Virus record (IMG/VR): IMGVR_UViG_3300030098_005649
Source of the DNA: a virus
Lineage: Duplodnaviria > Caudoviricetes
Length of the DNA stretch: 64,000 nt
Strand: one strand, 5' to 3'
The translations under genes and the position numbers were made by a program. Positions 13,669 to 63,396 of this stretch are shown here, one piece after another (position 1 is the first letter of the stretch; each line of letters starts with the position of its first letter). The notes below the pieces were generated by a model. The model made no database searches. It saw nothing but the letters and a program-made list of their open reading frames with translations, and was not told the DNA's origin.

Positions 13669-14766
13669 ATGCCTACAAAAGAAGATTTGGCTCAAGTTTT
13701 AGCTGAAAATCTAAACAAGAGTTTCAAAGATTACAAAGTTGCTTACTTTTTGGGAGAGGCTTCACAATCACCAACAGATGTAAAAGATTTCATTTCTACA
13801 GGTAGTAGTATGTTGGATTTGGCTATTTCAAATAGACAAAATGGTGGAATTGCAGTTGGTAGAATTACTGAAATCAACGGATTGGAATCAAGTGGTAAAT
13901 CATTACTTGGTGCTCATATATTATCCGAAACTCAGAAGAAAGGTGGAGTCGCAGTTTATATAGATACTGAGACTTCAGTTAGTCAGCAATTTCTTGGGGC
14001 TATAGGTGTTGATGTTTCAAAGATGTTGTATTTACATCTCGAAACTGTGGAAGACATCTTTCAGGCTATTGAAGAAATTGTAACTAAAGTTCGTGAGTCC
14101 GATAAGGATAGGTTGGTAACTATTCTTATTGATTCATTAGCTGCAGCTTCTACTAAGGTAGAGATGGATGCTGACTTTGATAAAGATGGTTGGGCAACTG
14201 CGAAGGCAATCATCATATCAAAGGCAATGAGAAAAATCACACAGATGATTGGTAGACAAAACATAGCCTTGGTATTTACAAACCAACTCAGACAGAAACT
14301 CGGAGTTATGTTTGGAGATCCTTGGACAACAAGTGGTGGGAAGGCCTTACCATTTCACGCATCAACTCGTATTCGACTAAAGAATATGGGACAAATCAAG
14401 GATAATAAGAAAAATATTCTTGGGATGAAGTGTAGGGCTCAAATAATCAAGAATAGACTTGGCCCACCATTACGACACGCAGACTATGATATGTATTTCG
14501 AGAGTGGAATTGACAATCTTGGTGGTTGGTTGACTGTGTTGAAAGACCACAAATTAGTAAAGTCCGCAGGTGCTTGGTATACATTAGTAGATGGAGAAGG
14601 TAAAGAACATAAATTTCAATCAAAAGATTGGGACGAACTTATGGAAGATGAAGAGTTGAAATCTTATGTCTATGACCTTATTTGTAATAAAGTAATATTA
14701 CAATATAAAACAGAAGATATGGGAATCGATGATATTGAATATACAGACGAGATAGTTGGGGACTAA
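13669..14766 (+). CDS. recA: RecA/UvsX-like recombinase
   Basis: GRITEINGLESSGKS (Walker A), ILIDSLAA, FTNQLRQKLGVMFGDPWTTSGGKALPFHASTR. Confidence 0.95.
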   Translation: MPTKEDLAQVLAENLNKSFKDYKVAYFLGEASQSPTDVKDFISTGSSMLDLAISNRQNGGIAVGRITEINGLESSGKSLLGAHILSETQKKGGVAVYIDTETSVSQQFLGAIGVDVSKMLYLHLETVEDIFQAIEEIVTKVRESDKDRLVTILIDSLAAASTKVEMDADFDKDGWATAKAIIISKAMRKITQMIGRQNIALVFTNQLRQKLGVMFGDPWTTSGGKALPFHASTRIRLKNMGQIKDNKKNILGMKCRAQIIKNRLGPPLRHADYDMYFESGIDNLGGWLTVLKDHKLVKSAGAWYTLVDGEGKEHKFQSKDWDELMEDEELKSYVYDLICNKVILQYKTEDMGIDDIEYTDEIVGD

Positions 14767-15803
14767 TGAAAAAAGAGTATCTATCTATCTTGGAAGAAAT
14801 CAAGAAGAATGGTGGAAAAGATAATCTTGGTGAATTGAACGATAAGGTTCTAATCATTGATGGGTTGAACACTTTTATAAGATGTTTTAGTGCGATACCA
14901 ACAACAAATGATGATGGAGAACACATCGGTGGTTTATCAGGATTTCTCAAATCAATAGGTTATGTCGTGAGTATGGTCAGACCCACACGAGCTATCGTGG
15001 TATTCGATGGTAAAGGTGGGTCTACCAGAAGAAGAAAACTCTATCCTGAATATAAACAAGGTAGGAAAATGTCAGAAAGACTAAATCGTGCCGATGGACT
15101 ATTCAATGAGAAGAATGATGAACGATTTTCTATGATGAAACAACTGAGAAGAGTTGTTGAGTATCTTGAGTATCTTCCTGTATTGACATATTCTGTTGAT
15201 GGAATTGAGGCTGATGATACCATTGGTTATCTAACTAAACAATGTCTCAAAGAATCTGAAGTCATTATAATGTCTACTGATAAAGACTTTCTTCAATTGG
15301 TTAGTGATAGGGTGAGTGTTTATTCACCAACAAAGAAAAAATTCTACAAACCACCACAAGTATTAGAAGAATATGGTGTTAGTTCAAAGAATCTTTTATA
15401 CTATAGAATTATAGAAGGAGATAAAAGTGACAACATAAAAGGTGTTCGTGGAATTGGTGGAAAGACAATACAGAAATGGGAAGTTTTATCAAAAGATAAA
15501 ATGATTTCAATGGATGAGTTGATTAGTTTAGATAAAAGACTTTCAGACTCTTCAAACACATTAGATATAAATTACAAATTGATGCAGTTACACGATGTAA
15601 ATATAAGTGGAACTACAAAAATAAACATATTGGATAGGTTAGATGAACCACCTACAGAACTGAAAAAGGTGAAGTTTCAGAAACTATTCTTAGAGGATAA
15701 ACTATATGGTGCAATTCCAAATATTGATAGTTGGTTGAATTCAACTTGGAGTATGATAAATCACATAGTAAAGAACACAAATGGGAAGAAAGAAAATTTA
15801 TAA
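14766..15803 (+). CDS. 5'-3' exonuclease / flap endonuclease (T4 RNase H-like)
   Basis: IIDGLN, VFDGKGG..RR...YKQGR, EADD, STDKDFLQL, GDKSDNIKGV.GIG. Confidence 0.92.
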   Translation: MKKEYLSILEEIKKNGGKDNLGELNDKVLIIDGLNTFIRCFSAIPTTNDDGEHIGGLSGFLKSIGYVVSMVRPTRAIVVFDGKGGSTRRRKLYPEYKQGRKMSERLNRADGLFNEKNDERFSMMKQLRRVVEYLEYLPVLTYSVDGIEADDTIGYLTKQCLKESEVIIMSTDKDFLQLVSDRVSVYSPTKKKFYKPPQVLEEYGVSSKNLLYYRIIEGDKSDNIKGVRGIGGKTIQKWEVLSKDKMISMDELISLDKRLSDSSNTLDINYKLMQLHDVNISGTTKINILDRLDEPPTELKKVKFQKLFLEDKLYGAIPNIDSWLNSTWSMINHIVKNTNGKKENL

Positions 15804-15963: not shown

Positions 15964-17310
15964 ATGGCAGATAGTCTAAACGATTATGGACCAACTTTTC
16001 AAACTAAAATACTATCGTCATTATTGACAGACAAGGTATTTATATCTACTATTATCGACATCATAGAAGTAGATTATTTTCAATCAGATGCAAACAAATG
16101 GATTGTGAAAACAATCGAAAAATATTTTATGGAGTATAAGACTCCACCATCACTTGATGCACTCAAAGTAGAATTGAAGAAACTAAAGAATGATGTTCTT
16201 CAAGTTGCTGTAGTTGAGGCTTTGAAATCGGCTTGGACTCATAGAGAGTCTGATGATTTAGATTATGTAAAGGATGAAATATTAGATTTTTGTAAAAATC
16301 AAAAACTAAAAAAGGCAATATTAGAATCAGTTGATTTGTTAGAAAATAAAGATTATGATGGTATAAAAATGGTAGTAGATACGGCAATGAGAGCTGGAAC
16401 TACAAGAGATTTAGGACACGATTATATAAGTGGTTTTGAGGAAAGACTTGAAACATCGGCTAGAAAGACCACACCAACACCTTGGCCAGTAATAAATGAT
16501 ATAATGGATGGTGGATTAGGTGGTGGTGAACTTGGTGTTATGGTTGCACCAGCTGGTATTGGTAAGACTTGGTTTTTACAAACTGTTGGTGCGGATGCAA
16601 TAAAGAAAGGTATGAAAGTTGTACACTATACACTTGAGTTGAATCAGGCTTATGTTGGTTTGAGATACGATACTATTATTTCAGGTATCAATACTCAACA
16701 ATTGAAGTATTATAAGGAAGATGTACAATCAAAGTTATTTGACATACAAGGTAATCTGATGATAAAGTATTACCCTACAAGAACTGCATCGGTTCAGACA
16801 ATATCATCTCATCTAAAACAATTAGAGTTGATAGAGTTCAAACCAGATGTTATTGTTGTTGATTATGCAGATATACTGAAACCCATATCAAATTATAGAG
16901 AGAAAAGATTGAATTTGGGTGAGACTTATGAACATCTTAGAGGTATGGCTGGTGAGTTTGATGTTCCTGTATGGACTGCATCTCAGGCAAATCGTAGTTC
17001 TTTAGAGGAAGAGGTAATTGGTGCGGATAAAGTTAGTGAAGACTATAGTAAGGTAATGACTGCAGATTTTGTTATGTCGATTAGTAGAAAAGTAGAAGAT
17101 AAAGTTGCTAATCTTGCAAGAGTTCATATTATAAAAAATAGATTTGGTGTGGATGGTGTCACATACCCAACTGATATGAATACTGATATTGGTAAAATTA
17201 TGGTAAATGATAGTAATACCAAACAAGGTCAGATTGCGAGTGAAAAGATGAATAACTCAGAAGAATATTTGAGGAAAATGGCAAAAAATCGATTCGACAA
17301 TCTCAGTTGA
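15964..17310 (+). CDS. replicative DnaB/gp41-type helicase
   Basis: APAGIGKTW (Walker A), YTLEL, IVVDYADIL, WTASQANR, IIKNRFG. Confidence 0.95.
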   Translation: MADSLNDYGPTFQTKILSSLLTDKVFISTIIDIIEVDYFQSDANKWIVKTIEKYFMEYKTPPSLDALKVELKKLKNDVLQVAVVEALKSAWTHRESDDLDYVKDEILDFCKNQKLKKAILESVDLLENKDYDGIKMVVDTAMRAGTTRDLGHDYISGFEERLETSARKTTPTPWPVINDIMDGGLGGGELGVMVAPAGIGKTWFLQTVGADAIKKGMKVVHYTLELNQAYVGLRYDTIISGINTQQLKYYKEDVQSKLFDIQGNLMIKYYPTRTASVQTISSHLKQLELIEFKPDVIVVDYADILKPISNYREKRLNLGETYEHLRGMAGEFDVPVWTASQANRSSLEEEVIGADKVSEDYSKVMTADFVMSISRKVEDKVANLARVHIIKNRFGVDGVTYPTDMNTDIGKIMVNDSNTKQGQIASEKMNNSEEYLRKMAKNRFDNLS

Positions 17311-17360: not shown

Positions 17361-19370
17361 ATGAGTAAATTTCAGTTATCAGATAATTTTATAAATAAGT
17401 ACAAGAGGAAAAAAGCTCCTTTTGGTTTTAATGGATTAGGTGAGTTGGTTTATATGAGAACCTACTCAAGAATCAAGGACAATGGCAAAAACGAAAGATG
17501 GTGGGAAACAGTACAACGAGTTGTAGAGGGAACTTACAACATGCAAATGAATTGGATTGAATCACATCAATTAGGGTGGAATCCCTGGCAAGCACAGAGG
17601 TCAGCACAAGATATGTATGACCGTATTTTCAATATGAAGTTCTTACCGCCAGGTCGTGGTTTGTGGGCAATGGGAACACCAATCACAGAGGAAAAAGGAC
17701 TATATGCCGCCCTAAATAATTGTGCCTTTGTATCAACAAAAACAATAAAAGAAGACTATGCCAAACCTTTTTGTTTCCTTATGGATGCAAGTATGTTGGG
17801 TGTTGGTGTTGGGTTCGATACAAAAGGTGCTGGAGAGATAGTAGTCAAAGGTATAAACAAGGATAGAGATGTTCAGACATTTCAAATACCTGATACTCGT
17901 GAGGGTTGGGTTGAGTCACTAAAGTTACTATTAGAAAGTTACTTTCACGGACAGGCACCAATGGAGTTTGACTACTCAATAATAAGACCAGCTGGTGTAC
18001 CAATAAAAGGTTTTGGTGGAGTTAGTTCAGGACCAGAACCACTAAAAGAAGTACACGAAGATATAAGAAAAGTACTTGAAAAGAATAGTGGAGAACCAAT
18101 CTCAATCACTACAATTGTTGATATTATGAATCTTATCGGTAAATGTGTAGTGGCTGGTAATGTTAGAAGAACGGCTGAGATTGTATTTGGAGACCCACAT
18201 TCAGAAGAATATTTAGATTTGAAAAATTATAAAGTAAATCCACATAGAGAACAATATGGATGGACAAGTAATAACTCCATATTTGCAGAGTTGGGTATGG
18301 ATTATACAGAAGCTGCAAAAAGAATTGCAGACAATGGAGAACCAGGATTTGCTTGGTTAGAAAATATGAGACAATATTCTCGTATGAAAAATGGTGGAGA
18401 CAATAAAGACCATAGAGTAATGGGTGGTAATCCTTGTTTGGAACAATCATTAGAATCATACGAATTGTGTTGTTTGGTAGAAACATTTCCTGAAAATCAC
18501 GATGATTTTGAGGATTATGCGAGAACACTAAAATATGCATACTTGTATGCAAAAACAGTAACACTTGGTAGAACTCATTGGAGTGATACAAATCGAGTTA
18601 TGTTGAGAAATAGGAGAATCGGTTGTAGTGTAAGTGGTGTTGCTCAGTTTATAACAAATAGAGGTTTAGATGAACTGAAAGAATGGTTGAATGGTGGATT
18701 TGATGTTATCCAACAATGGGATAAACAATATTCAGATTGGATGGCAGTTCCACGATCTATCAAGACCACATCGGTCAAACCATCAGGAACAGTTTCATTA
18801 TTAGCAGGAGCGACTCCAGGATTACATTACCCTGAGAGTCGTTTTTACATTAGGAGAATAAGAGTTTCAAAACATTCGGAACTATTAGAACCTATGAAAA
18901 AAGCAGGTTACAAAGTAGAACCAGCATTTGGTTCAGAAGACACAACTATGGTTGTCGAAGTACCAGTAGATGTCGGTGAGGGGATTAGAACAGCGGCTGA
19001 ACTTTCGATTTGGGAACAATTCAGTTTAGCCGCTTTTCTTCAACGACATTGGGCAGACAACCAAGTAAGTTGTACGGTTACATTCAATCCAGAAACGGAG
19101 ACAGACCAAATTGCTCCGTGTTTGAATTATTATCAGTATCACCTAAAGGGTATTAGTTTATTACCAAGACACGATTATGGGGCTTATCCTCAAATGCCAT
19201 ATGAAGGTATTGATGAGAAAACCTATGAGAAAGAAGTAAAGAAATTAGGTAAACTATCCTTTGGTGTGATAAAGAATGAAGAGGCAGAAGTAGATAAATT
19301 TTGTAACAACGATAGTTGTGAAATCATTCCAACCACTGGTGATAATGATGACCAAGATTATGCAAATTAG
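17361..19370 (+). CDS. nrdJ: class II (adenosylcobalamin-dependent) ribonucleotide reductase, monomeric type
   Basis: PPGRGLW, ALNNCAF, GGNPCLEQSL, TSVKPSGTVS, C-terminal FCNNDSC cysteine pair. Confidence 0.95.
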   Translation: MSKFQLSDNFINKYKRKKAPFGFNGLGELVYMRTYSRIKDNGKNERWWETVQRVVEGTYNMQMNWIESHQLGWNPWQAQRSAQDMYDRIFNMKFLPPGRGLWAMGTPITEEKGLYAALNNCAFVSTKTIKEDYAKPFCFLMDASMLGVGVGFDTKGAGEIVVKGINKDRDVQTFQIPDTREGWVESLKLLLESYFHGQAPMEFDYSIIRPAGVPIKGFGGVSSGPEPLKEVHEDIRKVLEKNSGEPISITTIVDIMNLIGKCVVAGNVRRTAEIVFGDPHSEEYLDLKNYKVNPHREQYGWTSNNSIFAELGMDYTEAAKRIADNGEPGFAWLENMRQYSRMKNGGDNKDHRVMGGNPCLEQSLESYELCCLVETFPENHDDFEDYARTLKYAYLYAKTVTLGRTHWSDTNRVMLRNRRIGCSVSGVAQFITNRGLDELKEWLNGGFDVIQQWDKQYSDWMAVPRSIKTTSVKPSGTVSLLAGATPGLHYPESRFYIRRIRVSKHSELLEPMKKAGYKVEPAFGSEDTTMVVEVPVDVGEGIRTAAELSIWEQFSLAAFLQRHWADNQVSCTVTFNPETETDQIAPCLNYYQYHLKGISLLPRHDYGAYPQMPYEGIDEKTYEKEVKKLGKLSFGVIKNEEAEVDKFCNNDSCEIIPTTGDNDDQDYAN

Positions 19371-19386
19371 ACTTACAAAACAGCGG

Positions 19387-19420
19387 ACAGGCAGACGACA
19401 CACCTGTAAAAAAATGTGTC
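19387..19420 (+). promoter_or_regulatory. candidate H-type RNA pseudoknot in the TBDR leader
   Basis: S1 ACAGG(19387-91)/CCTGT(19403-07), S2 GACACA(19397-402)/TGTGTC(19415-20), A7 loop; RBS AGGAG at 19438-42. Confidence 0.6.
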
Positions 19421-19450
19421 AATTTCAAAACAACAATAGGAGTGATTACT

Positions 19451-22204
19451 ATGAACTATCGTAATCTAATCTCTATTCTTGCAATATCAGTAGGACTTGT
19501 TTATGGACAAGCCGTTACTGGTTTTGTTGGGGATGGAGAAAAACCACTTGTTGGAGCGAATGTAATCGTTGAGGGTACAGAACTCGGTGGAGTAACAGAC
19601 GAAAGTGGAAAATTCGTCATCGAAACTGGATCTGGTACTTTTGACATTACTGCTTCATACATCGGTTATGTTGCCAAAACTCAATCAGTTGAGATTGGTG
19701 ATATAGTTGGAAGTGTCAGTTTTGACTTAGAAACTGATGTGGTTGCTCTCACAGCACTTGAAGTTCTTGCTTCTCGTGCAGATGAGACTACACCTGTTGC
19801 TTATACTACGGTTAGTAAAGAAGAAATGGAAGTTCGTCTTGGTTCACAAGATATTCCAATGATTCTAAACACAACACCAAGTGTATATGCAACTCAACAA
19901 GGTGGAGGTGCGGGAGATGCCCGTATTAATGTTCGTGGATTCAACCAACGAAATGTCGCAGTAATGATAAACGGAGTTCCCCAAAACGATATGGAGAACG
20001 GATGGGTTTATTGGTCTAATTGGGATGGAGTAGGAGATGCTACTTCCTCAATTCAGATGCAACGAGGTCTATCAGCCGTGAATCTTGCTACACCATCAAT
20101 TGGTGGAACGATGAACATTATCACCGACCCAGCTGCTCACGAAAAAGGTGGGAAGTTCAAACAAGAAGTCGGTGAGGGTGGATTTCTAAAATCTACCTTG
20201 AATTATAACTCAGGTCTAATAAATGATAAGTTGGCAATTAGTGGTACAATTGTTCGTAAAACTGGTGACGGTTTGATTGACGGTACTTGGACAGATGCTT
20301 GGGCTTATTATTTAGGTACATCATATGCTGTATCAGATAAACAGAGATTCGAGTTATATGCAATCGGTGCTCCACAAAGACACGGACAGAACCTATACAA
20401 ACAGAACATAGCTACTTATTCTCAAGAGTTGGCTGGAAGTATCGATGGATACAATGATTCAGCTTATGTTGAGGGAGAGAAGTTTGAAACTGAAGCTGGT
20501 AGGTTCTTCAATCAGAATTGGGCACCTGTAGACCCATCATACAAAGGCCAACAATATTGGTATATGTATGGTGCGAGAACTACAGACAGGTACAATCCAA
20601 ATCTGTTGAATGAAAGAGAAAACTTCTTTCATAAACCACTTGTAAATCTAAACCATTTCTATGATATAAATGATGATATGAGATTATCTTCAGTATTATA
20701 TTGGAGTGGTGGTTCAGGTGGTGGTACTGGTACTTATGGAAGTGTCAGTAGAAAACCTGCAGTCGAAGGAGAACCTTGGTATGCAAGTTCACCTTGGATG
20801 TGGGATTGGAATGCTGAGATTGAACAGAACTCATCTAATGTAGATTCTGCTTGGTCTGATGTTGAAAATCGTTCAACAGGTATTCTTCGTAACTCAATCA
20901 ATCGTCAGAACACATATGGTTTGATTTCTAAATTGAACTATGATGTATCAGACGAACTTGAAGTTCAAGTTGGTATCGATTGGAGAACTGCTGGTATTGA
21001 ACACGCTCGTGAGGTTCGTGATTTATTAGGTGGAGACTACTATGTAAATTTCGCCGATGATAACGCACCTGATGGTAAAGTAGTTCGTTTAGGTGATATT
21101 ATCGCCTATCACAACGAAACAACTGTAAATTGGTTTGGTGCTTTCTTACAAGGTAGTTATACTGGTGAGAAACTAAACCTTTATGGTATGGGTGGTGTAT
21201 CCACTATTGGATATACTTACGAAGACCATTTTGCTCTAAATGTAGATGAAGATGGAAACAAAATTGATAATTTTGTTGAAGCTCCATCTATCACAACCTT
21301 TCAAGTAAAGGGTGGTGCTAGATATAATCTTGACGACAGATTATCAGCATTTGCTAATTTAGGGTATGTTCAAAAACCACCAATCTTAGATAATGTGATT
21401 GACTATGATGGAAATGTATCTACAAATCCAGATAATGAGAAATTCATATCTAATGAAATCGGTGGAGAATACAGAAGTGATAAAGTTGCTATCAAGGGTA
21501 GTTATTATAACACTCAATGGAAAGATAGAAACCTTACAAAATCTGTAACAACAGGACAAGGTGATTCAGGTGACACAGACATCATTTATCTAACTGGTGT
21601 AGACCAAAGTCATAGTGGTTTCGAGATAGAGTCTAAAGTTGCTCTACACGAAATGGTAGACTTAGATGTCGCTGTTAGTATCGGAGATTGGTACTTTGAC
21701 GGAGATGCTAAAGGTGACTATACTTCAATGGAATACAATGAAAATAATGAGATTATCGGACAAACATCTACTGAGTATGAATATGCTCTCGCTAATCTAA
21801 AAGTTGGTGATATGCCACAAACATCTTATGTTGGTGGACTTACAGTAAAACCAATTAAAGGTTTGAGTGTACAAGGTCTTTATAGATGGTACGACAATCA
21901 CTATGCTGATTGGAGTCCTGATTCTCGTGAGGTTGAAGGTGATGCAGATAGAGAACAAGTATGGAAAACTCCATCTTATGGTAAGTTAGACTTACATCTA
22001 TCTTATAAATTACCTGAAATTGCAGGTCTTGATATGACTATTCACGGTCATTTATTCAATGCACTTGATGAGGTATTTATTCAAGATGCAGTAGACAATA
22101 GTAAATACAATGGGTATGGTGATAAACTTCACTTAGCTCATAATGCCGAAGTATTTCTTGGAACACCAAGAAGTTTCAACTTAGGACTATCTGTCAATTT
22201 CTAA
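19451..22204 (+). CDS. full-length TonB-dependent outer-membrane receptor with signal peptide and carboxypeptidase-regulatory-like N-domain
   Basis: start moved to ATG 19451 (RBS spacing); signal peptide MNYRNLISILAISVGLVYG; plug motif RINVRGFNQRNVAVMINGVPQNDMENGWVYWSNW; C-terminal LGLSVNF beta signal. Confidence 0.92.
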   Translation: MNYRNLISILAISVGLVYGQAVTGFVGDGEKPLVGANVIVEGTELGGVTDESGKFVIETGSGTFDITASYIGYVAKTQSVEIGDIVGSVSFDLETDVVALTALEVLASRADETTPVAYTTVSKEEMEVRLGSQDIPMILNTTPSVYATQQGGGAGDARINVRGFNQRNVAVMINGVPQNDMENGWVYWSNWDGVGDATSSIQMQRGLSAVNLATPSIGGTMNIITDPAAHEKGGKFKQEVGEGGFLKSTLNYNSGLINDKLAISGTIVRKTGDGLIDGTWTDAWAYYLGTSYAVSDKQRFELYAIGAPQRHGQNLYKQNIATYSQELAGSIDGYNDSAYVEGEKFETEAGRFFNQNWAPVDPSYKGQQYWYMYGARTTDRYNPNLLNERENFFHKPLVNLNHFYDINDDMRLSSVLYWSGGSGGGTGTYGSVSRKPAVEGEPWYASSPWMWDWNAEIEQNSSNVDSAWSDVENRSTGILRNSINRQNTYGLISKLNYDVSDELEVQVGIDWRTAGIEHAREVRDLLGGDYYVNFADDNAPDGKVVRLGDIIAYHNETTVNWFGAFLQGSYTGEKLNLYGMGGVSTIGYTYEDHFALNVDEDGNKIDNFVEAPSITTFQVKGGARYNLDDRLSAFANLGYVQKPPILDNVIDYDGNVSTNPDNEKFISNEIGGEYRSDKVAIKGSYYNTQWKDRNLTKSVTTGQGDSGDTDIIYLTGVDQSHSGFEIESKVALHEMVDLDVAVSIGDWYFDGDAKGDYTSMEYNENNEIIGQTSTEYEYALANLKVGDMPQTSYVGGLTVKPIKGLSVQGLYRWYDNHYADWSPDSREVEGDADREQVWKTPSYGKLDLHLSYKLPEIAGLDMTIHGHLFNALDEVFIQDAVDNSKYNGYGDKLHLAHNAEVFLGTPRSFNLGLSVNF

Positions 22205-22211
22205 AGTAATA

Positions 22212-22238
22212 AATTGGGGGGAATTTTTCCCCCCAATT
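22212..22238 (+). terminator. intrinsic terminator-like hairpin after the TBDR
   Basis: perfect 12-bp stem aattggggggaa/ttccccccaatt with 3-nt loop. Confidence 0.8.
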
Positions 22239-22256: not shown

Positions 22257-22757
22257 TTGAAAAAGTTATTATTTTTGTTATTATTATTTTGTTGTGATGA
22301 TAGAGTAGAAGACCCGACTAAATCTAATATTATCGTGACGATGTTACGAGTAGATAGAATTGAAATACTTGATTGGTTATGGATAACACCTGCTCCAATT
22401 TGGGGTCACTTAGAATCAGAAGATAGTATACCTCTTGAAAGAATGGTTGTACATTGGTGGAGTAATCTGTATTGGGACGAGGATGATTCAAGTGGTCATT
22501 ATAGATTACTACCCAACAGAAGAAACAAAGCAATATGGTATGATAACTTTGGAAACAGAGATACTATGGATGTAGATGTAGACACACTAAGATGGACTAC
22601 AGACAGATACTCTGAAGTAGATAGTTTAGGATATTTTTTTAATACACTAAGACCTACAAGAGTAATGCAAAATAAGGGTAGTGGTAGTTGGATGAAATTG
22701 TATTGGAGTATTGAAAATACACTAATAGATTCACAAGAAATATTTCTAATGGATTGA
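22257..22757 (+). CDS. putative lipoprotein / exported protein (paralog of 58029-58634)
   Basis: TTG start; MKKLLFLLLLFCC signal-like N-terminus; WWSNLYW...FNTLRP..M shared with the paralog. Confidence 0.55.
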   Translation: MKKLLFLLLLFCCDDRVEDPTKSNIIVTMLRVDRIEILDWLWITPAPIWGHLESEDSIPLERMVVHWWSNLYWDEDDSSGHYRLLPNRRNKAIWYDNFGNRDTMDVDVDTLRWTTDRYSEVDSLGYFFNTLRPTRVMQNKGSGSWMKLYWSIENTLIDSQEIFLMD

Positions 22758-22778
22758 AAAAAAAATAAAAAAAGTTGT

Positions 22779-22816
22779 AAAAAGTGCTTGTATTTGTCAT
22801 TTTTTCTTTGTAACTT
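22779..22816 (+). promoter_or_regulatory. sigma70-type early promoter
   Basis: aaaaagtgc-TTGTAT-17 nt-TAACTT; same family as the promoters at 23422, 30573, 57848, 63367, 63618 and 63989. Confidence 0.6.
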
Positions 22817-22842
22817 ATGGTATGATAAATAAGGAAAAAACA

Positions 22843-23199
22843 ATGAATACAAGAAAACATCTAAAAGAAGGTACTTACACTTATTGGGTAAATAAAAGAA
22901 GTGGTACTATCCAGCATGTGGGAGTTGAATACAATAAGTATTTCAAGAACTTCAAATTGACTATGAGTACTGTAAATTTACCATACGAAAGAATGTATTT
23001 CACAAAAGGTAGTGATATGAATGGTGTGGATAGATTCTTGAAAAACTATGAGTTTATTTGTGAGAATCCAGACAATGATTTTTTTGTAAATGTCTTGGCT
23101 AACAAGAAACTAAAGAGTGAGTTTACTTGGGGTAGAAAAACCAATGGTAGACTTGGTATCACTAAAGATGAATATTTTTCAAAACTAAACATAAAATAA
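22843..23199 (+). CDS. hypothetical protein (early gene)
   Basis: start moved to ATG 22843 behind the AAGGA RBS. Confidence 0.6.
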   Translation: MNTRKHLKEGTYTYWVNKRSGTIQHVGVEYNKYFKNFKLTMSTVNLPYERMYFTKGSDMNGVDRFLKNYEFICENPDNDFFVNVLANKKLKSEFTWGRKTNGRLGITKDEYFSKLNIK

Positions 23200-23211
23200 A
23201 AGGAGTCTATT

Positions 23212-23331
23212 ATGTATAGAAGTGAATGTTGTGGTGGAATGGTCTATGATGACTATGACATCTGTTCAGATTGTTACGAACACTGCGAAGTGTGGTTTGA
23301 TGGTGATGAAGAAGACGAAGACGAATCGTAA
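23212..23331 (+). CDS. 39-aa Cys-rich zinc-finger microprotein, not in the ORF track
   Basis: AGGAG RBS; MYRSECCGGMVYDDYDICSDCYEHCEVWFDGDEEDEDES. Confidence 0.7.
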   Translation: MYRSECCGGMVYDDYDICSDCYEHCEVWFDGDEEDEDES

Positions 23332-23425
23332 ATGTAAACAATGTAAAACAGAGTTAGATGGGATAATGATTTTTTATCCTGAACTCTGTTTATTTTGTGT
23401 TATAAAAAAAGAAAATAATGCTTGA
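23306..23425 (+). CDS. small CxxC...CxxC protein
   Basis: MKKTKTNRKCKQCKTELDGIMIFYPELCLFCVIKKENNA; 3' part of track ORF 23222-23425. Confidence 0.45.
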   Translation: MKKTKTNRKCKQCKTELDGIMIFYPELCLFCVIKKENNA

Positions 23426-23451
23426 CACATATAGTAAAAGTTGTGTATATT
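23422..23451 (+). promoter_or_regulatory. sigma70-type promoter of the nuclease/methyltransferase pair
   Basis: TTGACA-18 nt-TATATT. Confidence 0.75.
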
Positions 23452-23483
23452 ATACTATGAATAATAAAGGAAAAACAAACAAA

Positions 23484-24080
23484 ATGAAGACAACAACTAA
23501 CAATCTAATAAACAATTTTTCTTATGAAGACTTGGCTCACGCTTTATATCTAAAAGGTGAGAGGGATGGTGTTCATAAAATTACAGACAAAACTCAATGG
23601 AGAGAGTTTGTTATCGCTGACAAATTAGGTCATAAGGCTTTTGATAAGATTTCTGCTGGTAAAGGTAGTGATAAATATGGTGCAGATGCTTATGAGGCTA
23701 ATGGACAAACTGCAGAATATAAGAGTAAGTCTATCAATGACAAAGAGGTTCGTAACCTTACTCGTCAAGTTAGAAACCATAATACAGGTTTGAGATTTTC
23801 AGCACTCAAAGTTCCTGGTGTTTACAATGGGGCATATACACAAGATGCAATTGATGCTTATTCTAAACATAATCACTATTTTGGTGTGTTTTGGAAAGAG
23901 AGATGTGTTTTGATTATCAAACCAACTACTGATTATGTTATCAGTACACTTACTGAAAACAACAACAATCGTAAAGATGGGGCGACAACAAACCTAAATA
24001 GTGTTGTTGTGAACTTAGACGATGTTTCTAATTATGAAATTGCTTACAAAGACAATGATTGGTTCGAGGAGAATGAATGA
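23484..24080 (+). CDS. putative type II restriction endonuclease (PD-(D/E)XK fold)
   Basis: WREFVIA...GADAY...AEYKS catalytic spacing; overlaps a downstream DNA MTase. Confidence 0.6.
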   Translation: MKTTTNNLINNFSYEDLAHALYLKGERDGVHKITDKTQWREFVIADKLGHKAFDKISAGKGSDKYGADAYEANGQTAEYKSKSINDKEVRNLTRQVRNHNTGLRFSALKVPGVYNGAYTQDAIDAYSKHNHYFGVFWKERCVLIIKPTTDYVISTLTENNNNRKDGATTNLNSVVVNLDDVSNYEIAYKDNDWFEENE

Positions 24081-24841
24081 AAAGTTATGCTATAGTAAAT
24101 GAGGATTGTTTAGACTTACTAAGAGGTCTTGATGATAATTCTGTTGATTTGGTTCTAACAGACCCACCATACTATATTGGATATGATGGTGGTAAGGGTT
24201 GGGACTCGGCTTGGGACACAGAACAAGATTATTTAGATTGGTGTAAGTTATGGACAGCGGAATGTGTTAGGGTATTGAAACCAAATAGATGTATGTATGT
24301 TTGGGGTACTACCAAAACAGATACATTCTTGAGATATAAATTAGATGTTCTCAACTCTTTTGATGATATTTATTATCAGAGTTGGATAATATGGTCGTAT
24401 GATTGGGGTGGTAGAACAAAGAAAAACTTTGCCAGAAAACACGAGGATTTATTGATGTATTCTAAAGGTAAAGAATTTATGTTCAACAAAGATGATGTTA
24501 GAATACCATATATTTTGAAAAAGAGTGTTAGAAAAGGTAAAGAACTAAATCCACTTGGTAAAATACCAACGGATGTTTGGCCAAAGAATAATCATACCAC
24601 ATCAAAAGAATATGCTGGATGGCATCCAACTCAGAAACCACTTGAGTTATTAGAAAGAATTATCAAGGCTCACACAAATAAAGGTGATGTTGTTTTGGAT
24701 TGTTTTAGTGGTAGTGGTAGTACTGCAATTGCATCCATAAATACCAACAGAGAATTTATTGGTTGTGAGTTAGATGAGGAATATTTTACAAAATCAATGG
24801 AAAGAATAAACGAACTAACAGGTGTAAATAGGTTTATATAA
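24077..24841 (+). CDS. beta-class N6-adenine/N4-cytosine DNA methyltransferase
   Basis: LTDPPY (motif IV) before HPTQKP...VLDCFSGSGST (motif I). Confidence 0.93.
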   Translation: MKSYAIVNEDCLDLLRGLDDNSVDLVLTDPPYYIGYDGGKGWDSAWDTEQDYLDWCKLWTAECVRVLKPNRCMYVWGTTKTDTFLRYKLDVLNSFDDIYYQSWIIWSYDWGGRTKKNFARKHEDLLMYSKGKEFMFNKDDVRIPYILKKSVRKGKELNPLGKIPTDVWPKNNHTTSKEYAGWHPTQKPLELLERIIKAHTNKGDVVLDCFSGSGSTAIASINTNREFIGCELDEEYFTKSMERINELTGVNRFI

Positions 24842-27364
24842 ATGTATCAGGCAATTCATTACGACCATTTCAAAAAGAAAATACATCTTTGGGATGATAA
24901 GGCTGGTTACCAAGTCATACCATTCAAAAAATATGCGTATACTAAATCACCTGGTGGTCAATATGTTTCACTATATGGTGATAGACTAAAGAAGATACAC
25001 GATTGGGATCCTAAAGAAAAAGGTCTGTTTGAGTCTGATGTACAACCCGTAGTTAGATTTTTAGTAGACCAATATACAGATAGTGATGAAGTATCTGATG
25101 GTCACAGAGTAATGATTATGGATATCGAGTGTGAAATCGTAGATGGATTTCCTGATGTTCAGAATCCAAAAGAACAGATAACTTCTATTGCGATTTATGA
25201 TTCTATTACCGACCACTATACTGCTTTTGTACTCGATCCTGAAAATAAATTTGAACTACCATCTGATGATGTAGGTAACAGAGTAAAAGAAGAAGATGGA
25301 CAAACGATTGAAACATTCAAAACAGAGTTTCAATTATTGACAAGATTTTACCTAAAATATATGGAAATCCAACCAACAATAATTACTGGCTGGAATATAG
25401 AGTTTTTCGATATTCCTTTTCTCTATAATCGGTCAGTTCAAGTGGTTGGTGCTGATGTGGCCAATTTACTATCACCAATTAGAGAAGTAAATTGGTCTAC
25501 ATTCAGAGAAAGATATACAATTGCAGGTGTGAACATTTTAGACTATCTCGCACTCTACAAGAACTTTAGATTTACGATGCAATCAAGTTACAGATTAGAC
25601 CATATTGGTGAGGTTGAGGTTGGTACGAATAAAATAGAATATGATGGTACATTGAACGATTTATATGAAAATGACTTAGAGAAATTTGTAGAATATAACA
25701 TACACGATGTTAGGATTGTGAAGAAACTCGATGATAAATTAGATTTTATTGATATTGCTCGTGGTGTGGCTCATCTTGGGCATGTACCTTATGAAGATGT
25801 ATTTATGAGTTCACGATATCTTGAGGGTGCGATTTTAGTCTATCTGAAAAAGGTTGGAATGGTTGCACCAGATAAACCACCAAGACCAAAACAATTGAGT
25901 GGTGATAAGTTCGCAGGTGCTTATGTACAAGAACCACAATCTGGTAAACATAGTTGGGTATATGATTTGGATATTACGAGTATGTATCCGAGTGTAATTC
26001 GTTCATTGAATATTTCACCTGAAACTAAACTTGGTAAGGTTATTGGTTGGGATCCTGAAGAGTATTTACAAAAAGATTTGAAAAAGACTTATACTATTGA
26101 GATGAAAGGTAAGGAACAAGGTAAAGTAACTAATGACCAACTCGAACAATACTTCAATGATAATCAAGTCAGTATATCTTCTTGTGGAGTATTGTATAGA
26201 ACTGATAAGAAAGGTTTGATTCCATCACTATTGACTAAGTGGTTCAATGAAAGGGTAGAGTTCAGAAAGTTGGCTAAGAAGTTTGCTGAAGAGGGTAACG
26301 ATGAACAACATCAGTATTTTGATAGAAGACAATACCTACAGAAGATTATTCTAAACTCATTATATGGTGTATTGGGTTTACCTGTATTTAGATTCTATGA
26401 CTTAGATAATGCAGAATCAACAACATTGACAGGTCAATCACTAATCAAATTCACTAAGAAAATGGGTAACTACTTTTACAACAGAGAGTTGGGTGATGAC
26501 AAAGACTATTGTATTTACATTGATACTGATTCAGTATTTTATTCTGCAGTTCCATTGGTAGAGAAGAGATTTCCGAATGAAAAATTATCTGATGTGATGA
26601 TGTCAAAAAAGATTCTTGATATTGCATCAGAGGTACAAACATTCTTGAACAATTCATATAATTATTTTGCCAAAAGATTCAATCGTATAGATGAACACCA
26701 TTACGAGATAAAACAAGAGGTTATTGCAAAGAGTGGATTATTCATTACCAAGAAAAGATATGGTATGAAAATTATCAATGATGCTGGAGTAAAGGTAAAC
26801 AAAGTGCATGTCAAGGGTTTGGATACCGTTAGAAGTTCGTTTGCAATAGCGATGAAAGAATTACTATCGAGTGTGTTGGAAGATATCTTGGCGGATGTAC
26901 CAAAAGAAAAGATAGATGAGAGAATTGTAAACTTTAGAAATTCAATGGAGTTGATGGACTTTGATAGAATCTCATCACCAGTTGGGGTAAAGAATATATC
27001 AAAATACATATCACCATCTGATGGTATGTTTACTGATTTCAAAAAAGGTGCACCAGTGCATGTCAAGGCTGCTATAAATCACAATGACTTACTGAAGTAT
27101 TACAAACAAGATAAGAAATATGAATTCATCAAGAATGGTAGTAAGATAAAGTGGGTGTATCTAAAAGAAAATAATTTAGGTATGGATGTGTTGGCCTACA
27201 AAGGTTATGAGGATCCACCTGAGATAATCAAATTCATAAAAGAGAATATACACCATAAGAAAATCTACGACCAGGCGTTATATAAAAAGATTATGATGTT
27301 TTATCAGGCTATGAATTGGGATGAACCAACACTAAAAAAAGATACCATTGAAAGATTTTTTTGA
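24842..27364 (+). CDS. family-B DNA polymerase with 3'-5' exonuclease domain (gp43-like)
   Basis: DIECE, GWNIEFFDIP, YNIHDV, DLDITSMYPS, KIILNSLYG, YIDTDS, KKRYG. Confidence 0.97.
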   Translation: MYQAIHYDHFKKKIHLWDDKAGYQVIPFKKYAYTKSPGGQYVSLYGDRLKKIHDWDPKEKGLFESDVQPVVRFLVDQYTDSDEVSDGHRVMIMDIECEIVDGFPDVQNPKEQITSIAIYDSITDHYTAFVLDPENKFELPSDDVGNRVKEEDGQTIETFKTEFQLLTRFYLKYMEIQPTIITGWNIEFFDIPFLYNRSVQVVGADVANLLSPIREVNWSTFRERYTIAGVNILDYLALYKNFRFTMQSSYRLDHIGEVEVGTNKIEYDGTLNDLYENDLEKFVEYNIHDVRIVKKLDDKLDFIDIARGVAHLGHVPYEDVFMSSRYLEGAILVYLKKVGMVAPDKPPRPKQLSGDKFAGAYVQEPQSGKHSWVYDLDITSMYPSVIRSLNISPETKLGKVIGWDPEEYLQKDLKKTYTIEMKGKEQGKVTNDQLEQYFNDNQVSISSCGVLYRTDKKGLIPSLLTKWFNERVEFRKLAKKFAEEGNDEQHQYFDRRQYLQKIILNSLYGVLGLPVFRFYDLDNAESTTLTGQSLIKFTKKMGNYFYNRELGDDKDYCIYIDTDSVFYSAVPLVEKRFPNEKLSDVMMSKKILDIASEVQTFLNNSYNYFAKRFNRIDEHHYEIKQEVIAKSGLFITKKRYGMKIINDAGVKVNKVHVKGLDTVRSSFAIAMKELLSSVLEDILADVPKEKIDERIVNFRNSMELMDFDRISSPVGVKNISKYISPSDGMFTDFKKGAPVHVKAAINHNDLLKYYKQDKKYEFIKNGSKIKWVYLKENNLGMDVLAYKGYEDPPEIIKFIKENIHHKKIYDQALYKKIMMFYQAMNWDEPTLKKDTIERFF

Positions 27365-32386: not shown

Positions 32387-32959
32387 ATGGCGAAAGGTAA
32401 ATTGACAGAACTTACTAATTATGAGAAAGCATTGTATGAACACGAATGGGGATTAGATACCAAAGAAAAAATAATTTGGTTGAATCAAGAATTCGAGTTA
32501 TCGACAATTTATGATATCGGAGCAAAATTACACACGATACAGAGGGTAAATCCTACTGATGACCCAATAACTTTACATATCACATCTTATGGTGGTGATT
32601 TGTATTCGGCACTTGGGTTGATAGACACTATACAATCATTTCCTGTGAAAGTAAATACACACGCAGTTGGTGCATGTATGAGTGCAGGAAGTTTGATTCT
32701 AATAAGTGGTACAGGTGAAAGAACTATGACTAAAAATACGACAATTATGGTACACGAGGGTTCTTCTTTTGAACACGGAAAAACAAGTGATGTGTTGAGT
32801 TCATCAAAACATCTTGAAAATCTTAGGAAGAAAATGATAGAGATGTTTATTCAACACACCAACAAACCAAAGGCATTTTGGAATAGAATTATGACAAAAG
32901 ACACATACATTGATTCCAAACAGGCTATAGAATACGGAATAGTAGATAGTATAAAATGA
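32387..32959 (+). CDS. clpP: ClpP-like serine protease subunit
   Basis: ITSYGGDL, GACMSAG (Ser), IMVHE (His), DTYIDSKQAIEYGIVD; start moved to ATG 32387 behind GAGGGA. Confidence 0.85.
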   Translation: MAKGKLTELTNYEKALYEHEWGLDTKEKIIWLNQEFELSTIYDIGAKLHTIQRVNPTDDPITLHITSYGGDLYSALGLIDTIQSFPVKVNTHAVGACMSAGSLILISGTGERTMTKNTTIMVHEGSSFEHGKTSDVLSSSKHLENLRKKMIEMFIQHTNKPKAFWNRIMTKDTYIDSKQAIEYGIVDSIK

Positions 32960-36374: not shown

Positions 36375-36626
36375 ATGATAAATTTAAGAGACGACTTAAT
36401 AAGAGCAAGTGAGTCACATTTTTTAGCACACATTGAGAAACATAGAGTCAATGTGGAGAATCTATTAAATAATGCAGTAGGAGTTAGTGAACATTCAGAC
36501 TTGATGGATACGATAGAAAAAGAGCTGGCAATTATTGCTGAGTATGATGATAAACTTGAAACTTTAAAAAAATATTTTCCGACAGAATATAATGGAAAAG
36601 ATACGAAGGAACTTCTAAATGGCTAA
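36375..36626 (+). CDS. small helical hypothetical protein
   Basis: 83 aa ORF overlapping the next gene; unusual content of 4 TTAA sites. Confidence 0.65.
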   Translation: MINLRDDLIRASESHFLAHIEKHRVNVENLLNNAVGVSEHSDLMDTIEKELAIIAEYDDKLETLKKYFPTEYNGKDTKELLNG

Positions 36627-39318: not shown

Positions 39319-39320
39319 TA

Positions 39321-40958: not shown

Positions 40959-40959
40959 G

Positions 40960-63302: not shown

Positions 63303-63366
63303 GCATTTTCTGAGAACTTTTTCACACTTTTTTAAGTAATAAAGTAAAAAAAAATGAAAAAAACGC

Positions 63367-63396
63367 TTGACATATATGGTGTTTTATTCGTATATT
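63367..63396 (+). promoter_or_regulatory. sigma70-type early promoter
   Basis: TTGACA-18 nt-TATATT. Confidence 0.75.

What the first reader, a model, noticed from the sequence alone, without database searches (positions are those of the whole stretch)
17361..22204. Phage carries an intact TonB-dependent receptor directly downstream of its B12-dependent ribonucleotide reductase
Seen: a ~917-aa TBDR with signal peptide, plug, barrel and terminal Phe, undisrupted, with a strong RBS and its own terminator, 80 bp after nrdJ. It largely follows the same site-avoidance rules as core genes, which suggests long residence in the phage rather than host contamination. Established: NrdJ needs adenosylcobalamin, and cobalamin and other scarce cofactors cross outer membranes through TBDRs. 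Inference: either a nutrient-import module for nucleotide synthesis, or an outer-membrane remodelling or superinfection-exclusion function. The substrate cannot be read from the sequence, and I cannot assign it as BtuB.
Basis: partly seen in the sequence, partly recalled or inferred. Interest (0 to 1): 0.75.

Follow-up and report, generated by a model that had tools for sequence, protein, structure and literature searches.

The report
Phage-borne outer-membrane nutrient importer gene
A widespread group of marine T4-like phages, probably infecting SAR406 (Marinimicrobia) bacteria, carries an intact copy of one of the host's own outer-membrane nutrient importers behind a small conserved RNA knot; it has been kept working for a very long time, but it is not the host's vitamin B12 importer.

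Summary
A class II ribonucleotide-triphosphate reductase gene (RTPR, 17361-19370) is followed after 80 nt by an intact 917-aa TonB-dependent transporter gene (TBDR, 19451-22204) with its own terminator. Both lie between the phage helicase and DNA polymerase genes.

- **Not a chimera.** 331 viral contigs encode a relative. One 130-kb contig also carries a T4-type major capsid gene.
- **Origin.** The viral TBDRs form one clade nested inside Marinimicrobia orthologues (52-66% identity).
- **Long residence.** dN/dS is 0.13, the plug and TonB box are nearly invariant, and the gene shares the phage's extreme avoidance of palindromic tetranucleotides.
- **B12 link not supported.** Three Marinimicrobia genomes hold a cobalamin riboswitch. 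In two it precedes an unrelated BtuB-like receptor, while the orthologue of the phage gene has none.
- **Linkage not universal.** Close relatives lack the TBDR (one through a visible deletion) or carry glutamine synthetase in its place. More distant phages hold it away from RTPR.
- **Leader RNA.** A 34-nt H-type pseudoknot supported by covariation always travels with the TBDR.

Best reading: a host-derived uptake gene of unknown substrate. Phage TBDRs are already reported in megaphages, and this scan found the same family earlier on other DNA.

The parts
17361..19370 (+). Monomeric class II (adenosylcobalamin-dependent) ribonucleoside-triphosphate reductase, RTPR, 669 aa
   Evidence: NCBIfam TIGR02505 scores 373 bits against a cut-off of 340. 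Pfam finds RNR_Alpha, RNR-II_ins_dom and Ribonuc_red_lgC. It is 76-93% identical across related viral contigs.
19371..19450 (+). 80-nt RTPR-TBDR spacer, the TBDR leader. No + strand terminator lies between the two genes, so co-transcription is likely (inferred).
   Evidence: The spacer is 75-140 nt in most relatives.
19387..19420 (+). H-type pseudoknot in the leader. Stem 1 pairs 19387-19391 with 19403-19407. Stem 2 pairs 19397-19402 with 19415-19420. The last loop is A-rich, and conserved GCGG lies just 5' (19383-19386).
   Evidence: Alignment A1 holds 56 distinct leaders. 98.4% of cells are paired, 5 of 11 pairs show compensatory changes, and 0 of 500 shuffles reach this. No Rfam match up to E = 10. 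The motif occurs once in the window. It is absent upstream of host orthologues. All 81 further viral stretches with the motif and with room downstream have the TBDR downstream.
19438..19442 (+). Shine-Dalgarno AGGAG, 8 nt before the ATG
   Evidence: GGAG is conserved at this position in the relatives' leaders.
19451..22204 (+). TonB-dependent outer-membrane transporter, 917 aa: signal peptide (aa 1-20), CarboxypepD_reg-like N-terminal extension (aa 21-95), candidate TonB box ALEVLASRA (aa 102-110), plug (about aa 116-260), 22-strand barrel (about aa 261-917), terminal Phe
   Evidence: Pfam; model m9ccec59007c9; Foldseek. Conservation, TonB box and C-terminus. dN/dS 0.127. The in-frame GTG at 19442 is not the start, because homologues begin at the ATG.
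22212..22238 (+). Intrinsic-terminator-like hairpin closing the TBDR unit
   Evidence: 12-pair stem with a G6/C6 core. The same hairpin survives next to the 33-nt TBDR remnant in the deletion variant L191.
22257..24841 (+). Variable insertion island between the TBDR terminator and polB. It includes a lipoprotein-like 166-aa ORF (22257-22757) and a DNA methyltransferase-like ORF (24077-24841). It is not part of the conserved unit.
   Evidence: In about half of the relatives polB starts 103-152 nt after the TBDR. Others hold unrelated inserts.

Best explanation
This is a host-derived auxiliary gene. An ancestor of this T4-like phage lineage captured one specific TonB-dependent transporter gene from a Marinimicrobia (SAR406) host and has kept it working.

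Inferred mechanism: the gene is transcribed with the replication and nucleotide-metabolism genes, probably on the RTPR message. It is translated from its own leader, whose conserved pseudoknot most likely sets translation or mRNA stability. The protein would then be exported by the host Sec system, inserted by the host BAM complex and energised by host TonB-ExbBD through a TonB box identical to the host's. It would add to or replace the host orthologue and sustain uptake of that orthologue's substrate during a long infection of a slow-growing, nutrient-limited cell.

The substrate is unknown. It is very probably not cobalamin. The position next to RTPR reflects insertion into a plastic slot between RTPR and polB, not a dedicated B12 module.

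Shown: origin, intactness, long purifying selection, conserved functional motifs, the leader structure, and the non-identity with the host's riboswitch-controlled receptor. Inferred: expression timing, membrane insertion, transport activity and benefit to the phage.
For: Single capture from the host: all viral TBDRs form one clade (support 100, stem length 0.30) nested inside Marinimicrobia orthologues. The best cellular matches are Marinimicrobia at 52-66% identity.

Function retained:
- Median dN/dS is 0.127 over 2982 pairs, with dS up to about 0.8 and more.
- The plug is nearly invariant in phage and host. Only 2 fixed host-to-virus differences occur at conserved sites.
- The TonB box motif is at least 90% invariant in both groups, and the C-terminal Phe is kept.
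- Relative to the host, extracellular loops are the most constrained region (entropy ratio 0.46). The fast-changing parts are the signal peptide and the periplasmic N-terminal extension.

Long residence: 331 viral contigs carry the gene, and its restriction-site avoidance is phage-like.

Dedicated cis element: the pseudoknot has covariation and always travels with the TBDR.

Accessory status: natural variants have the gene deleted or replaced by glutamine synthetase in the same slot.

Phage identity: UvsX, DnaB and polB; PhoH and CobS/CobT-like genes; a T4 Gp23 capsid gene on a TBDR-bearing 130-kb contig.

Precedent: TBDR genes are reported in the marine megaphage Mar_Mega_1 (PMC9723777), and a transcribed one in a Lak phage (bioRxiv 10.64898/2026.10.24.761521).
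Against: - No expression, localisation or transport data exist.
- Neither the phage nor the host context names a substrate. The host orthologue stands alone, convergent with a dnaG-cvpA-yqeY group.
- Outer-membrane proteins are stable, so the need for a replacement copy is not obvious.
- Some close relatives do without the gene.
- The N-terminal extension differs at about 48% of residues between phages whose polymerases are over 90% identical. This could mean that part of the host function is relaxed.
- The host assignment rests on the phylogeny of the captured gene itself.
Confidence: 0.6

Rival explanations
1. Outer-membrane remodelling or superinfection exclusion. The phage copy changes the receptor landscape of the infected cell so that competing phages, or the phage's own progeny, adsorb less. 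It could do this by displacing the host orthologue that serves as a phage receptor, or by working with other phage envelope proteins.
For: - TBDRs are classic phage receptors (established knowledge: FhuA for T1/T5/phi80, BtuB for BF23).
- A 2026 preprint proposes this role for phage-encoded beta-barrel proteins (10.64898/2026.10.24.761521).
- Between phages with nearly identical backbones the TBDR is the most diverged of the six genes compared (0.79-0.92 against 0.90-0.99).
- Related contigs encode a small signal-peptide protein made of a TonB C-terminal domain. Periplasmic TonB C-domains are known to inhibit TonB-dependent uptake in E. coli (my own knowledge).
- A lipoprotein-like ORF follows the TBDR in some relatives.
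Against: - The extra divergence sits in the signal peptide and the periplasmic N-terminal extension, not in the surface loops. The loops are the most constrained region relative to the host.
- The phage copy keeps nearly every host-conserved residue, including the TonB box and plug. A mere blocker or decoy would not need these.
- Making more of a receptor would tend to trap progeny.
- The lipoprotein-like ORF is present in only a minority of relatives.
Confidence: 0.2
2. Cobalamin (or corrinoid) importer that feeds the adjacent B12-dependent RTPR: the first reader's nutrient-module idea in its specific form.
For: - The gene lies immediately after RTPR in 59 of 67 RTPR-selected relatives, with no terminator between.
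- Pairwise divergence of TBDR tracks RTPR better than it tracks polB (Spearman 0.64 against 0.44).
- The related record G001 also encodes CobS/CobT-like proteins.
- The fold matches BtuB as well as it matches any other TBDT.
Against: - No cobalamin riboswitch is found in the window or upstream of 7 host orthologues.
- In two host genomes the only detected cobalamin riboswitch precedes a different 687-aa receptor. The one compared is related to solved Bacteroides BtuB (8p98, 8p97, 8bmx) and unrelated in sequence to the phage protein.
- The phage protein is 917 aa with an N-terminal extension, unlike BtuB.
- The slot after RTPR holds glutamine synthetase or nothing in close relatives.
- Leader plus TBDR occurs without RTPR on five other viral contigs.
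Confidence: 0.06
3. Assembly chimera, host contamination or a decaying passenger gene with no function in the phage.
For: GC content of the RTPR-TBDR stretch is slightly higher (0.38) than in the rest of the window (about 0.33). One cellular-looking contig (L083) falls at the base of the viral clade.
Against: - The same junctions recur in well over 100 independent contigs from many samples.
- The reading frames are intact, with dN/dS 0.13.
- Site avoidance in the gene is phage-like.
- A capsid gene lies on the same contig in a relative.
Confidence: 0.02

Closest known systems
TonB-dependent receptor genes of megaphages: the SusC-like gene of marine Mar_Mega_1 (PMC9723777; BFVD entry A0A8D9FQQ5) and the 22-strand TBDR of Lak phages (bioRxiv 10.64898/2026.10.24.761521)
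   Same: A complete plug-plus-barrel TonB-dependent transporter encoded by a lytic-type tailed phage of an FCB-group host and read as an auxiliary or envelope gene. A0A8D9FQQ5 is the only TBDT-fold hit among catalogued viral structures.
   Different: - Only 12% identical to the Mar_Mega_1 protein in the structural alignment, and 23-28% over the plug region to megaphage records. These are independent captures.
- The carrier here is a T4-like phage of roughly 180 kb (my estimate from CheckV completeness), not a phage of over 500 kb.
- The donor is Marinimicrobia.
- The gene is fixed at one genomic slot across hundreds of contigs and has its own conserved pseudoknot leader.
The Marinimicrobia (SAR406) chromosomal orthologue, e.g. 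L085:7998-10748 in MAG UBA2986
   Same: 66% identity over the full length, with the same domain order, TonB box, nearly identical plug and terminal Phe.
   Different: The host gene has no pseudoknot leader, is not next to RTPR, has ordinary restriction-site content and has more variable surface loops. Its substrate is unknown.
BtuB, the cobalamin TonB-dependent transporter (E. coli 1NQE/2GSK; Bacteroides 8P98)
   Same: The general 22-strand barrel and plug fold (Foldseek E about 3e-30, TM-score on the target 0.81). The neighbouring enzyme uses cobalamin.
   Different: 13-14% identity, no better than to siderophore, PQQ or copper transporters. About 300 residues longer, with an N-terminal extension. 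No riboswitch. The host has a separate riboswitch-controlled BtuB-like gene.
Classical phage auxiliary metabolic genes kept under purifying selection (cyanophage psbA; PhoH, CobS and Hsp20 of marine T4-like phages)
   Same: A host-derived gene placed among phage genes, retained across a lineage and presumed to sustain a host function during infection. PhoH, CobS/CobT-like and Hsp20 genes occur in these same phages.
   Different: The product must cross the inner membrane and be assembled in the outer membrane, which is slow and depends on several host machines. No phage TBDR has been tested in experiment, as far as the held literature shows.
T4 gene 32 mRNA pseudoknot operator (my own knowledge, not tested here)
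   Same: A compact H-type pseudoknot tens of nt upstream of the ribosome-binding site in the leader of a T4-like phage gene, followed by A/U-rich unstructured RNA.
   Different: No sequence relation was tested. It controls a different gene. No binding protein is known here. The motif occurs once in the window.

Membership tests
TonB-dependent transporter (TBDT) | N-terminal signal peptide for Sec export | tested here: met
   A hydrophobic N-terminus of about 20 aa ends in ..VYGQ/FAQ. It is alignable with the host signal peptides. This was read from the sequence; no predictor was run.
TonB-dependent transporter (TBDT) | Plug domain (PF07715) | tested here: met
   Pfam Plug, E 7e-14, aa 115-223 of the 920-aa GTG-start translation (about 112-220 from the ATG). 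Nearly invariant in phage and host.
TonB-dependent transporter (TBDT) | 22-strand beta-barrel enclosing the plug | tested here: met
   Model pLDDT 88.3. Foldseek E 1e-37 to 1e-29 to PqqU, Fiu, YncD, FhuA, FecA and BtuB. The Pfam barrel model itself was not hit at E<0.01.
TonB-dependent transporter (TBDT) | TonB box N-terminal to the plug | tested here: inconclusive
   The motif ALEVLASRA (aa 102-110) is at least 90% invariant in phage and host and lies in the disordered linker before the plug. Its binding to TonB was not shown.
TonB-dependent transporter (TBDT) | C-terminal aromatic residue for BAM recognition | tested here: met
   Terminal Phe in 78 of 79 viral and 59 of 60 host sequences. 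The one viral exception is a contig-end truncation.
BtuB / cobalamin transporter | Cobalamin riboswitch control | tested here: not met
   No Rfam hit in the window or in 7 host orthologue loci.
BtuB / cobalamin transporter | Orthology to the host's riboswitch-controlled receptor, or sequence similarity to solved BtuB | tested here: not met
   The host riboswitch precedes a different 687-aa receptor in two genomes. BLASTP of that receptor against the phage TBDR gives E 0.06. That receptor, not the phage one, matches 8p98 BtuB. The PDB sequence search with the phage TBDR gave no BtuB.
SusC/RagA-type transporter | SusC signature (TIGR04056) and an adjacent SusD-like lipoprotein | tested here: not met
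   NCBIfam gave no SusC/RagA model. In about half of the relatives polB follows directly. Host orthologues have no SusD-like neighbour. Only the N-terminal CarboxypepD_reg extension is shared.
Class II ribonucleoside-triphosphate reductase (RTPR) | Match to the equivalog model above its curated cut-off | tested here: met
   TIGR02505 scores 373.3 bits against a cut-off of 340.05.
T4-like (Straboviridae-type) phage | T4-type replication and recombination genes and the Gp23 major capsid protein | tested here: met
   UvsX, a DnaB/gp41-like helicase and polB phrog_262 in the window. Gp23 (PF07068, E 6e-76) on the related TBDR-bearing contig G007. The capsid gene was not found on the four other fragments or on G001, which are 41-66% complete.
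H-type RNA pseudoknot | Two interleaved helices supported by compensatory changes | tested here: met
   5 of 11 pairs show changes on both sides, 98.4% of cells are paired, and slid controls reach 17-57%.

The most novel reading that the evidence does not exclude
The leader pseudoknot is a new small sensor or operator: a ligand-binding riboswitch, or the target of a phage RNA-binding protein. It would gate TBDR translation. Together with the secreted TonB C-domain mini-protein encoded by these phages, it would form a phage-run system that takes over TonB-dependent traffic at the SAR406 outer membrane, favouring the phage's own importer while shutting down host receptors or entry of competing phages.
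Probability: 0.12. Interest if true: 0.8.

Novelty: new variant of a known kind. Interest (0 to 1): 0.55.

Why it matters
SAR406 (Marinimicrobia) is abundant in the dark ocean and has no cultured phage, to my knowledge. A captured host gene that nests inside the Marinimicrobia orthologues gives a testable host link for a widespread T4-like phage group, seen in hundreds of IMG/VR contigs.

It also shows that outer-membrane importers, so far noted in megaphages, are kept under strong purifying selection in ordinary-sized marine myoviruses. Infected cells may therefore change what they take up from sea water.

The natural variants (TBDR, glutamine synthetase, or an empty slot at the same position) offer a ready comparison for which nutrient regime favours which cargo. 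The covariation-supported pseudoknot has no Rfam match and is a candidate new regulatory RNA.

Showing that the tempting B12 story fails is useful in itself.

Tried and rejected
- **Near-identical phage search.** Megablast of 18 kb against INPHARED phages gave no match.
- **Own assembly.** The window's own assembly is not held. The near-identical record G001 was used instead.
- **Cassette exchange.** I first thought the RTPR-TBDR pair was a mobile cassette swapped among phages, because it is far more conserved than polB and dnaB. I rejected this. No pair combines TBDR identity above 0.93 with polB below 0.7, and the pattern fits slow-evolving cores plus a fast N-terminal extension.
- **Host neighbourhood.** It gave no substrate clue. 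Names in the protein collection were generic.
- **Structural genes on G001.** Gp23 and Terminase_6N searches of G001 were empty; it is only 59% complete.
- **ExbB.** Not found on five phage contigs.
- **Pseudoknot checks.** A single-strand MFE fold cannot show the pseudoknot and is unremarkable (z 0.18). A permissive Rfam search of the leader found nothing.
- **Promoter motif.** CTTGAC-N10-TTTTATTCGTA lies upstream of polB in TBDR-less relatives. In this window it occurs only near 63.4 kb, so it says nothing about TBDR timing.
- **Complex prediction.** The TBDR (aa 95-917) with the phage TonB C-domain protein gave no verdict (score 0.00; controls not run). This counts neither for nor against binding.
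- **Literature.** Searches for a SAR406 phage with a TBDR found nothing specific.
- Several minus-strand references were trimmed at the wrong end by one codon (for example). This drops the first Met and does not affect the domain hits.
Full report
**What is there.**
The window is phage DNA. All long ORFs lie on the + strand and GC content is about 0.33. Around the finding lie UvsX (13669-14766), an exonuclease (14766-15803), a DnaB-like helicase (15964-17310) and a T4-type family B DNA polymerase (24842-27364).

Between the helicase and the polymerase sit the two genes of the finding. The ORF at 17361-19370 is a monomeric class II ribonucleoside-triphosphate reductase (TIGR02505, 373 bits against a cut-off of 340). 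An 80-nt spacer follows, with AGGAG eight nt before the ATG at 19451. A 917-aa protein then runs to 22204 and ends in Phe, followed by a strong hairpin terminator at 22212-22238.

Pfam sees a CarboxypepD_reg-like N-terminal domain and a Plug domain. An AlphaFold model built on 87 sequences is confident (pLDDT 88.3, pTM 0.81). It matches solved 22-strand TonB-dependent transporters such as PqqU, Fiu, YncD, FhuA, FecA, OprC and BtuB at E 1e-37 to 1e-29, but at only 12-14% identity and with no preference that would name a substrate.

**It belongs to the phage.**
A scan of IMG/VR found 331 viral contigs that encode a relative; the best 80 are 74-99% identical. In every one whose DNA reaches upstream of the TBDR, RTPR lies immediately upstream, with the helicase before it and polB after it.

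A near-identical 109-kb viral record, G001, covers the window at 98.9% identity. It also encodes PhoH and CobS/CobT-like proteins. A 130-kb TBDR-bearing contig carries a T4-type Gp23 major capsid gene (E 6e-76). CheckV estimates of 59% and 71% completeness for these two records imply genomes of roughly 180 kb.

The window avoids six palindromic tetranucleotides almost completely: ACGT 0 of 69 expected, CCGG 0 of 16, CATG 12 of 188, GATC 14 of 220, CTAG 11 of 108 and TTAA 49 of 373. The TBDR gene obeys the same rule, while the host orthologues carry most of these sites at ordinary density. Chimerism and recent contamination are excluded.

**Where it came from.**
In one genome per species of GTDB, the best cellular matches are all Marinimicrobia (Neomarinimicrobiota, SAR406; some titled Fidelibacterota or 'uncultured bacterium') at 52-66% identity over the full length. 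The top 'Flavobacteriales' hit, L082, is a mis-binned phage contig holding RTPR, TBDR and polB.

In a tree of 157 sequences the viral proteins form one clade (support 100, stem 0.30) nested inside the Marinimicrobia orthologues. One short cellular-looking contig, L083, sits unresolved at the base of that clade. It has no leader and lies next to a sugar aminotransferase. The simplest reading is a single old capture from a Marinimicrobia host. This also gives the best available host assignment.

**It has been kept working.**
- Across 2982 phage-phage comparisons the median dN/dS is 0.127.
- The plug is almost invariant in phage and host alike. Only two positions conserved in hosts are fixed to another residue in phages.
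- The probable TonB box (ALEVLASRA, aa 102-110) is at least 90% invariant in both groups, and the terminal Phe is kept.

The TBDR (median pairwise identity 0.80) and RTPR (0.855) look far more conserved than polB (0.56) or the helicase (0.58). I first took this for cassette exchange. However, between phages with nearly identical backbones the TBDR is the most diverged gene (0.79-0.92), and no pair combines a near-identical TBDR with a distant backbone.

Mapping the differences onto the model explains the pattern. In such close pairs the signal peptide and the periplasmic N-terminal extension differ at about 48-50% of residues. The plug differs at 8%, the barrel strands at 14% and the extracellular loops at 16%. 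Relative to the host, the loops are the most constrained part (entropy ratio 0.46). That is what a conserved ligand-binding importer would show. A surface protein in an arms race would show the opposite.

**The B12 idea.**
Rfam finds no cobalamin riboswitch in the window or in seven host loci that hold the orthologue. Three of five Marinimicrobia genomes searched contain exactly one cobalamin riboswitch each. In two of them it directly precedes a different 687-aa receptor, and in the third a DUF5074 protein.

- The 687-aa receptor compared has Bacteroides BtuB entries as its closest solved relatives (8p98, 8p97, 8bmx).
- It has no significant similarity to the phage protein (E 0.06).
- In the same genome the true orthologue is 66% identical to the phage protein.

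The phage therefore copied a receptor that is not the host's B12 receptor. The host orthologue stands alone, often convergent with a dnaG-cvpA-yqeY group, with no transport partner nearby. Its substrate cannot be read.

**Is the RTPR link fixed?**
No.
- Among 67 contigs chosen by RTPR similarity (86-100%) with room downstream, 59 have the TBDR and 8 do not.
- In L191 the RTPR 3' end is joined at a 6-nt microhomology (CCAAGA) to the last 33 nt of the TBDR plus its terminator. This is a clean deletion and shows that the gene was ancestral there.
- In L180 and L242 polB follows RTPR directly. In L219, L222 and L223 a glutamine synthetase gene fills the slot, and the short flanks of L218 and L196 show the start of the same gene.
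- Downstream of the TBDR, polB starts 103-152 nt later in about half of the relatives. The rest carry unrelated inserts, as does this window at 22257-24841.
- Five more distant viral contigs (TBDR 63-75% identical) hold leader plus TBDR with no RTPR on the contig. In the three examined, Hsp20 and an unknown gene lie upstream instead.

The RTPR-polB interval is a plastic cargo slot. Adjacency to RTPR is history, not evidence of a joint function.

**The leader.**
The spacer contains a 34-nt H-type pseudoknot at 19387-19420. Stem 1 is ACAGG/CCTGT and stem 2 is GACACA/TGTGTC, with an A-rich last loop and a conserved GCGG just upstream. In 56 distinct leaders 98.4% of pair cells are paired, 5 of 11 pairs show compensatory changes, no shuffle reaches this, and slid registers collapse.

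The motif is absent upstream of host orthologues, has no Rfam match and occurs once in the window. Each of 81 further viral stretches with the motif and with room downstream has the TBDR downstream.

The conserved unit is therefore leader plus TBDR plus terminator. The pseudoknot ends 17 nt before the Shine-Dalgarno sequence, so it does not hide it. Possible roles are a protein operator of the T4 gene 32 kind, a stability element or a small riboswitch. None was tested.

**A second TonB-related gene.**
About 1.7 kb beyond the right end of the window, G001 encodes a 112-aa protein with a signal-peptide-like N-terminus and a TonB C-terminal domain (Pfam 31.8 bits against a cut-off of 24.6). Homologues are present on 6 of 10 related contigs examined. 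These include the TBDR-deletion phage and one contig where the TBDR is not next to RTPR.

Host TonB proteins are open frames of about 205-227 aa and 28-38% identical over the C-domain, so the phage form lacks the long linker. No ExbB was found. Whether this mini-protein helps or blocks TonB-dependent transport is open.

**Prior knowledge.**
- TBDR genes have been reported in the marine megaphage Mar_Mega_1 and related records (PMC9723777).
- A transcribed TBDR gene has been reported in a Lak phage, with receptor interference proposed as a possible role (bioRxiv 10.64898/2026.10.24.761521).
- The only TBDT-fold entry in BFVD is the Mar_Mega_1 protein.
- A study of RTPR-carrying virioplankton does not mention TonB.
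- I found no paper on this lineage, its SAR406 link or its leader.
- This scan had already noted the same family on another genome (e1-4702854) and the pseudoknot in this window (e1-5342265). My independent tests agree with both.

**Verdict.**
The most likely function is a host-derived TonB-dependent importer of unknown, non-B12 substrate, kept as accessory cargo with its own RNA leader (confidence 0.6). Envelope remodelling or exclusion is the main rival (0.2).

Noticed in passing
window 1-64000 (counts exclude 17361-22204): Near-total avoidance of six palindromic tetranucleotides: ACGT 0/69 expected, CCGG 0/16, CATG 12/188, GATC 14/220, CTAG 11/108, TTAA 49/373. GGTACC is also avoided (1/10). 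This suggests pressure from many host restriction systems. Host genes do not show it.
   Followed up: partly
L247:6435-6770:- (G001; about 1.7-2.0 kb beyond the window's right end): A 112-aa protein with a signal-peptide-like N-terminus and a TonB C-terminal domain but no long linker. Homologues occur on 6 of 10 related phage contigs, including a TBDR-deleted one. Host TonB open frames are about 205-227 aa.
   Followed up: partly
L219:8028-9041 (also L222, L223; the start of the gene in L218 and L196): In close relatives a glutamine synthetase-like gene of about 337 aa occupies the slot after RTPR where this phage has the TBDR. I identified it by reading the translation; no family search was run.
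   Followed up: partly
L191:4380-4480: A natural deletion variant. The RTPR 3' end is fused at a CCAAGA microhomology to the last 33 nt of the TBDR, and the terminator is retained.
   Followed up: yes
window 22257-22757: A 166-aa ORF with a TTG start and a lipoprotein-like N-terminus (MKKLLFLLLLFCCDD..) directly after the TBDR terminator. A related lipoprotein-like ORF is present in 7 of the 77 relatives listed. No PHROG hit.
   Followed up: partly
window 24077-24841, 28154-30576, 32956-34035: Several DNA-methyltransferase-like genes: a DPPY-motif ORF next to polB, and three ORFs matching phrog_12517, of which the one at 29359-30576 also matches methyltransferase PHROGs phrog_498 and phrog_67. 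Together with the site avoidance this points to heavy anti-restriction investment.
   Followed up: no
window 36619-50266: Two glycosyltransferase-like genes (36619-38028, 38029-39318) and an aminotransferase-like gene (48938-50266) lie within a long run of ORFs without PHROG matches. This may be a sugar-modification cluster.
   Followed up: no
window 63366-63392 and 63617-63643; L180, L191, L242 upstream of polB: A conserved promoter-like motif, CTTGAC-N10-TTTTATTCGTA. It precedes polB in TBDR-less relatives and occurs twice near the window's right end.
   Followed up: partly
L165:5946-8009:- and L166:2954-6312:- (Marinimicrobia genomes G002, G003): The host's probable B12 uptake locus: a cobalamin riboswitch, then a 687-aa BtuB-like receptor, then (in G003) a DUF5074 protein with a T9SS sorting tail.
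   Followed up: partly
L082 (NZWA01000089.1, 'Flavobacteriales bacterium NAT55') and L083 (JAFMFP010000048.1): L082 is a phage contig (RTPR, TBDR, polB) binned into a Flavobacteriales MAG. L083 is a 4.3-kb contig of a Marinimicrobia MAG. Its TBDR falls at the base of the viral clade, but it has no leader and lies next to a sugar aminotransferase. It may be the nearest cellular lineage or a phage fragment.
   Followed up: partly
L245:13617-14369:-, L246:6987-8228:-, L246:9040-11199:- (G001): PhoH, CobS-like (AAA ATPase) and CobT-like genes, as in marine T4-like cyanophages and pelagimyophages.
   Followed up: no
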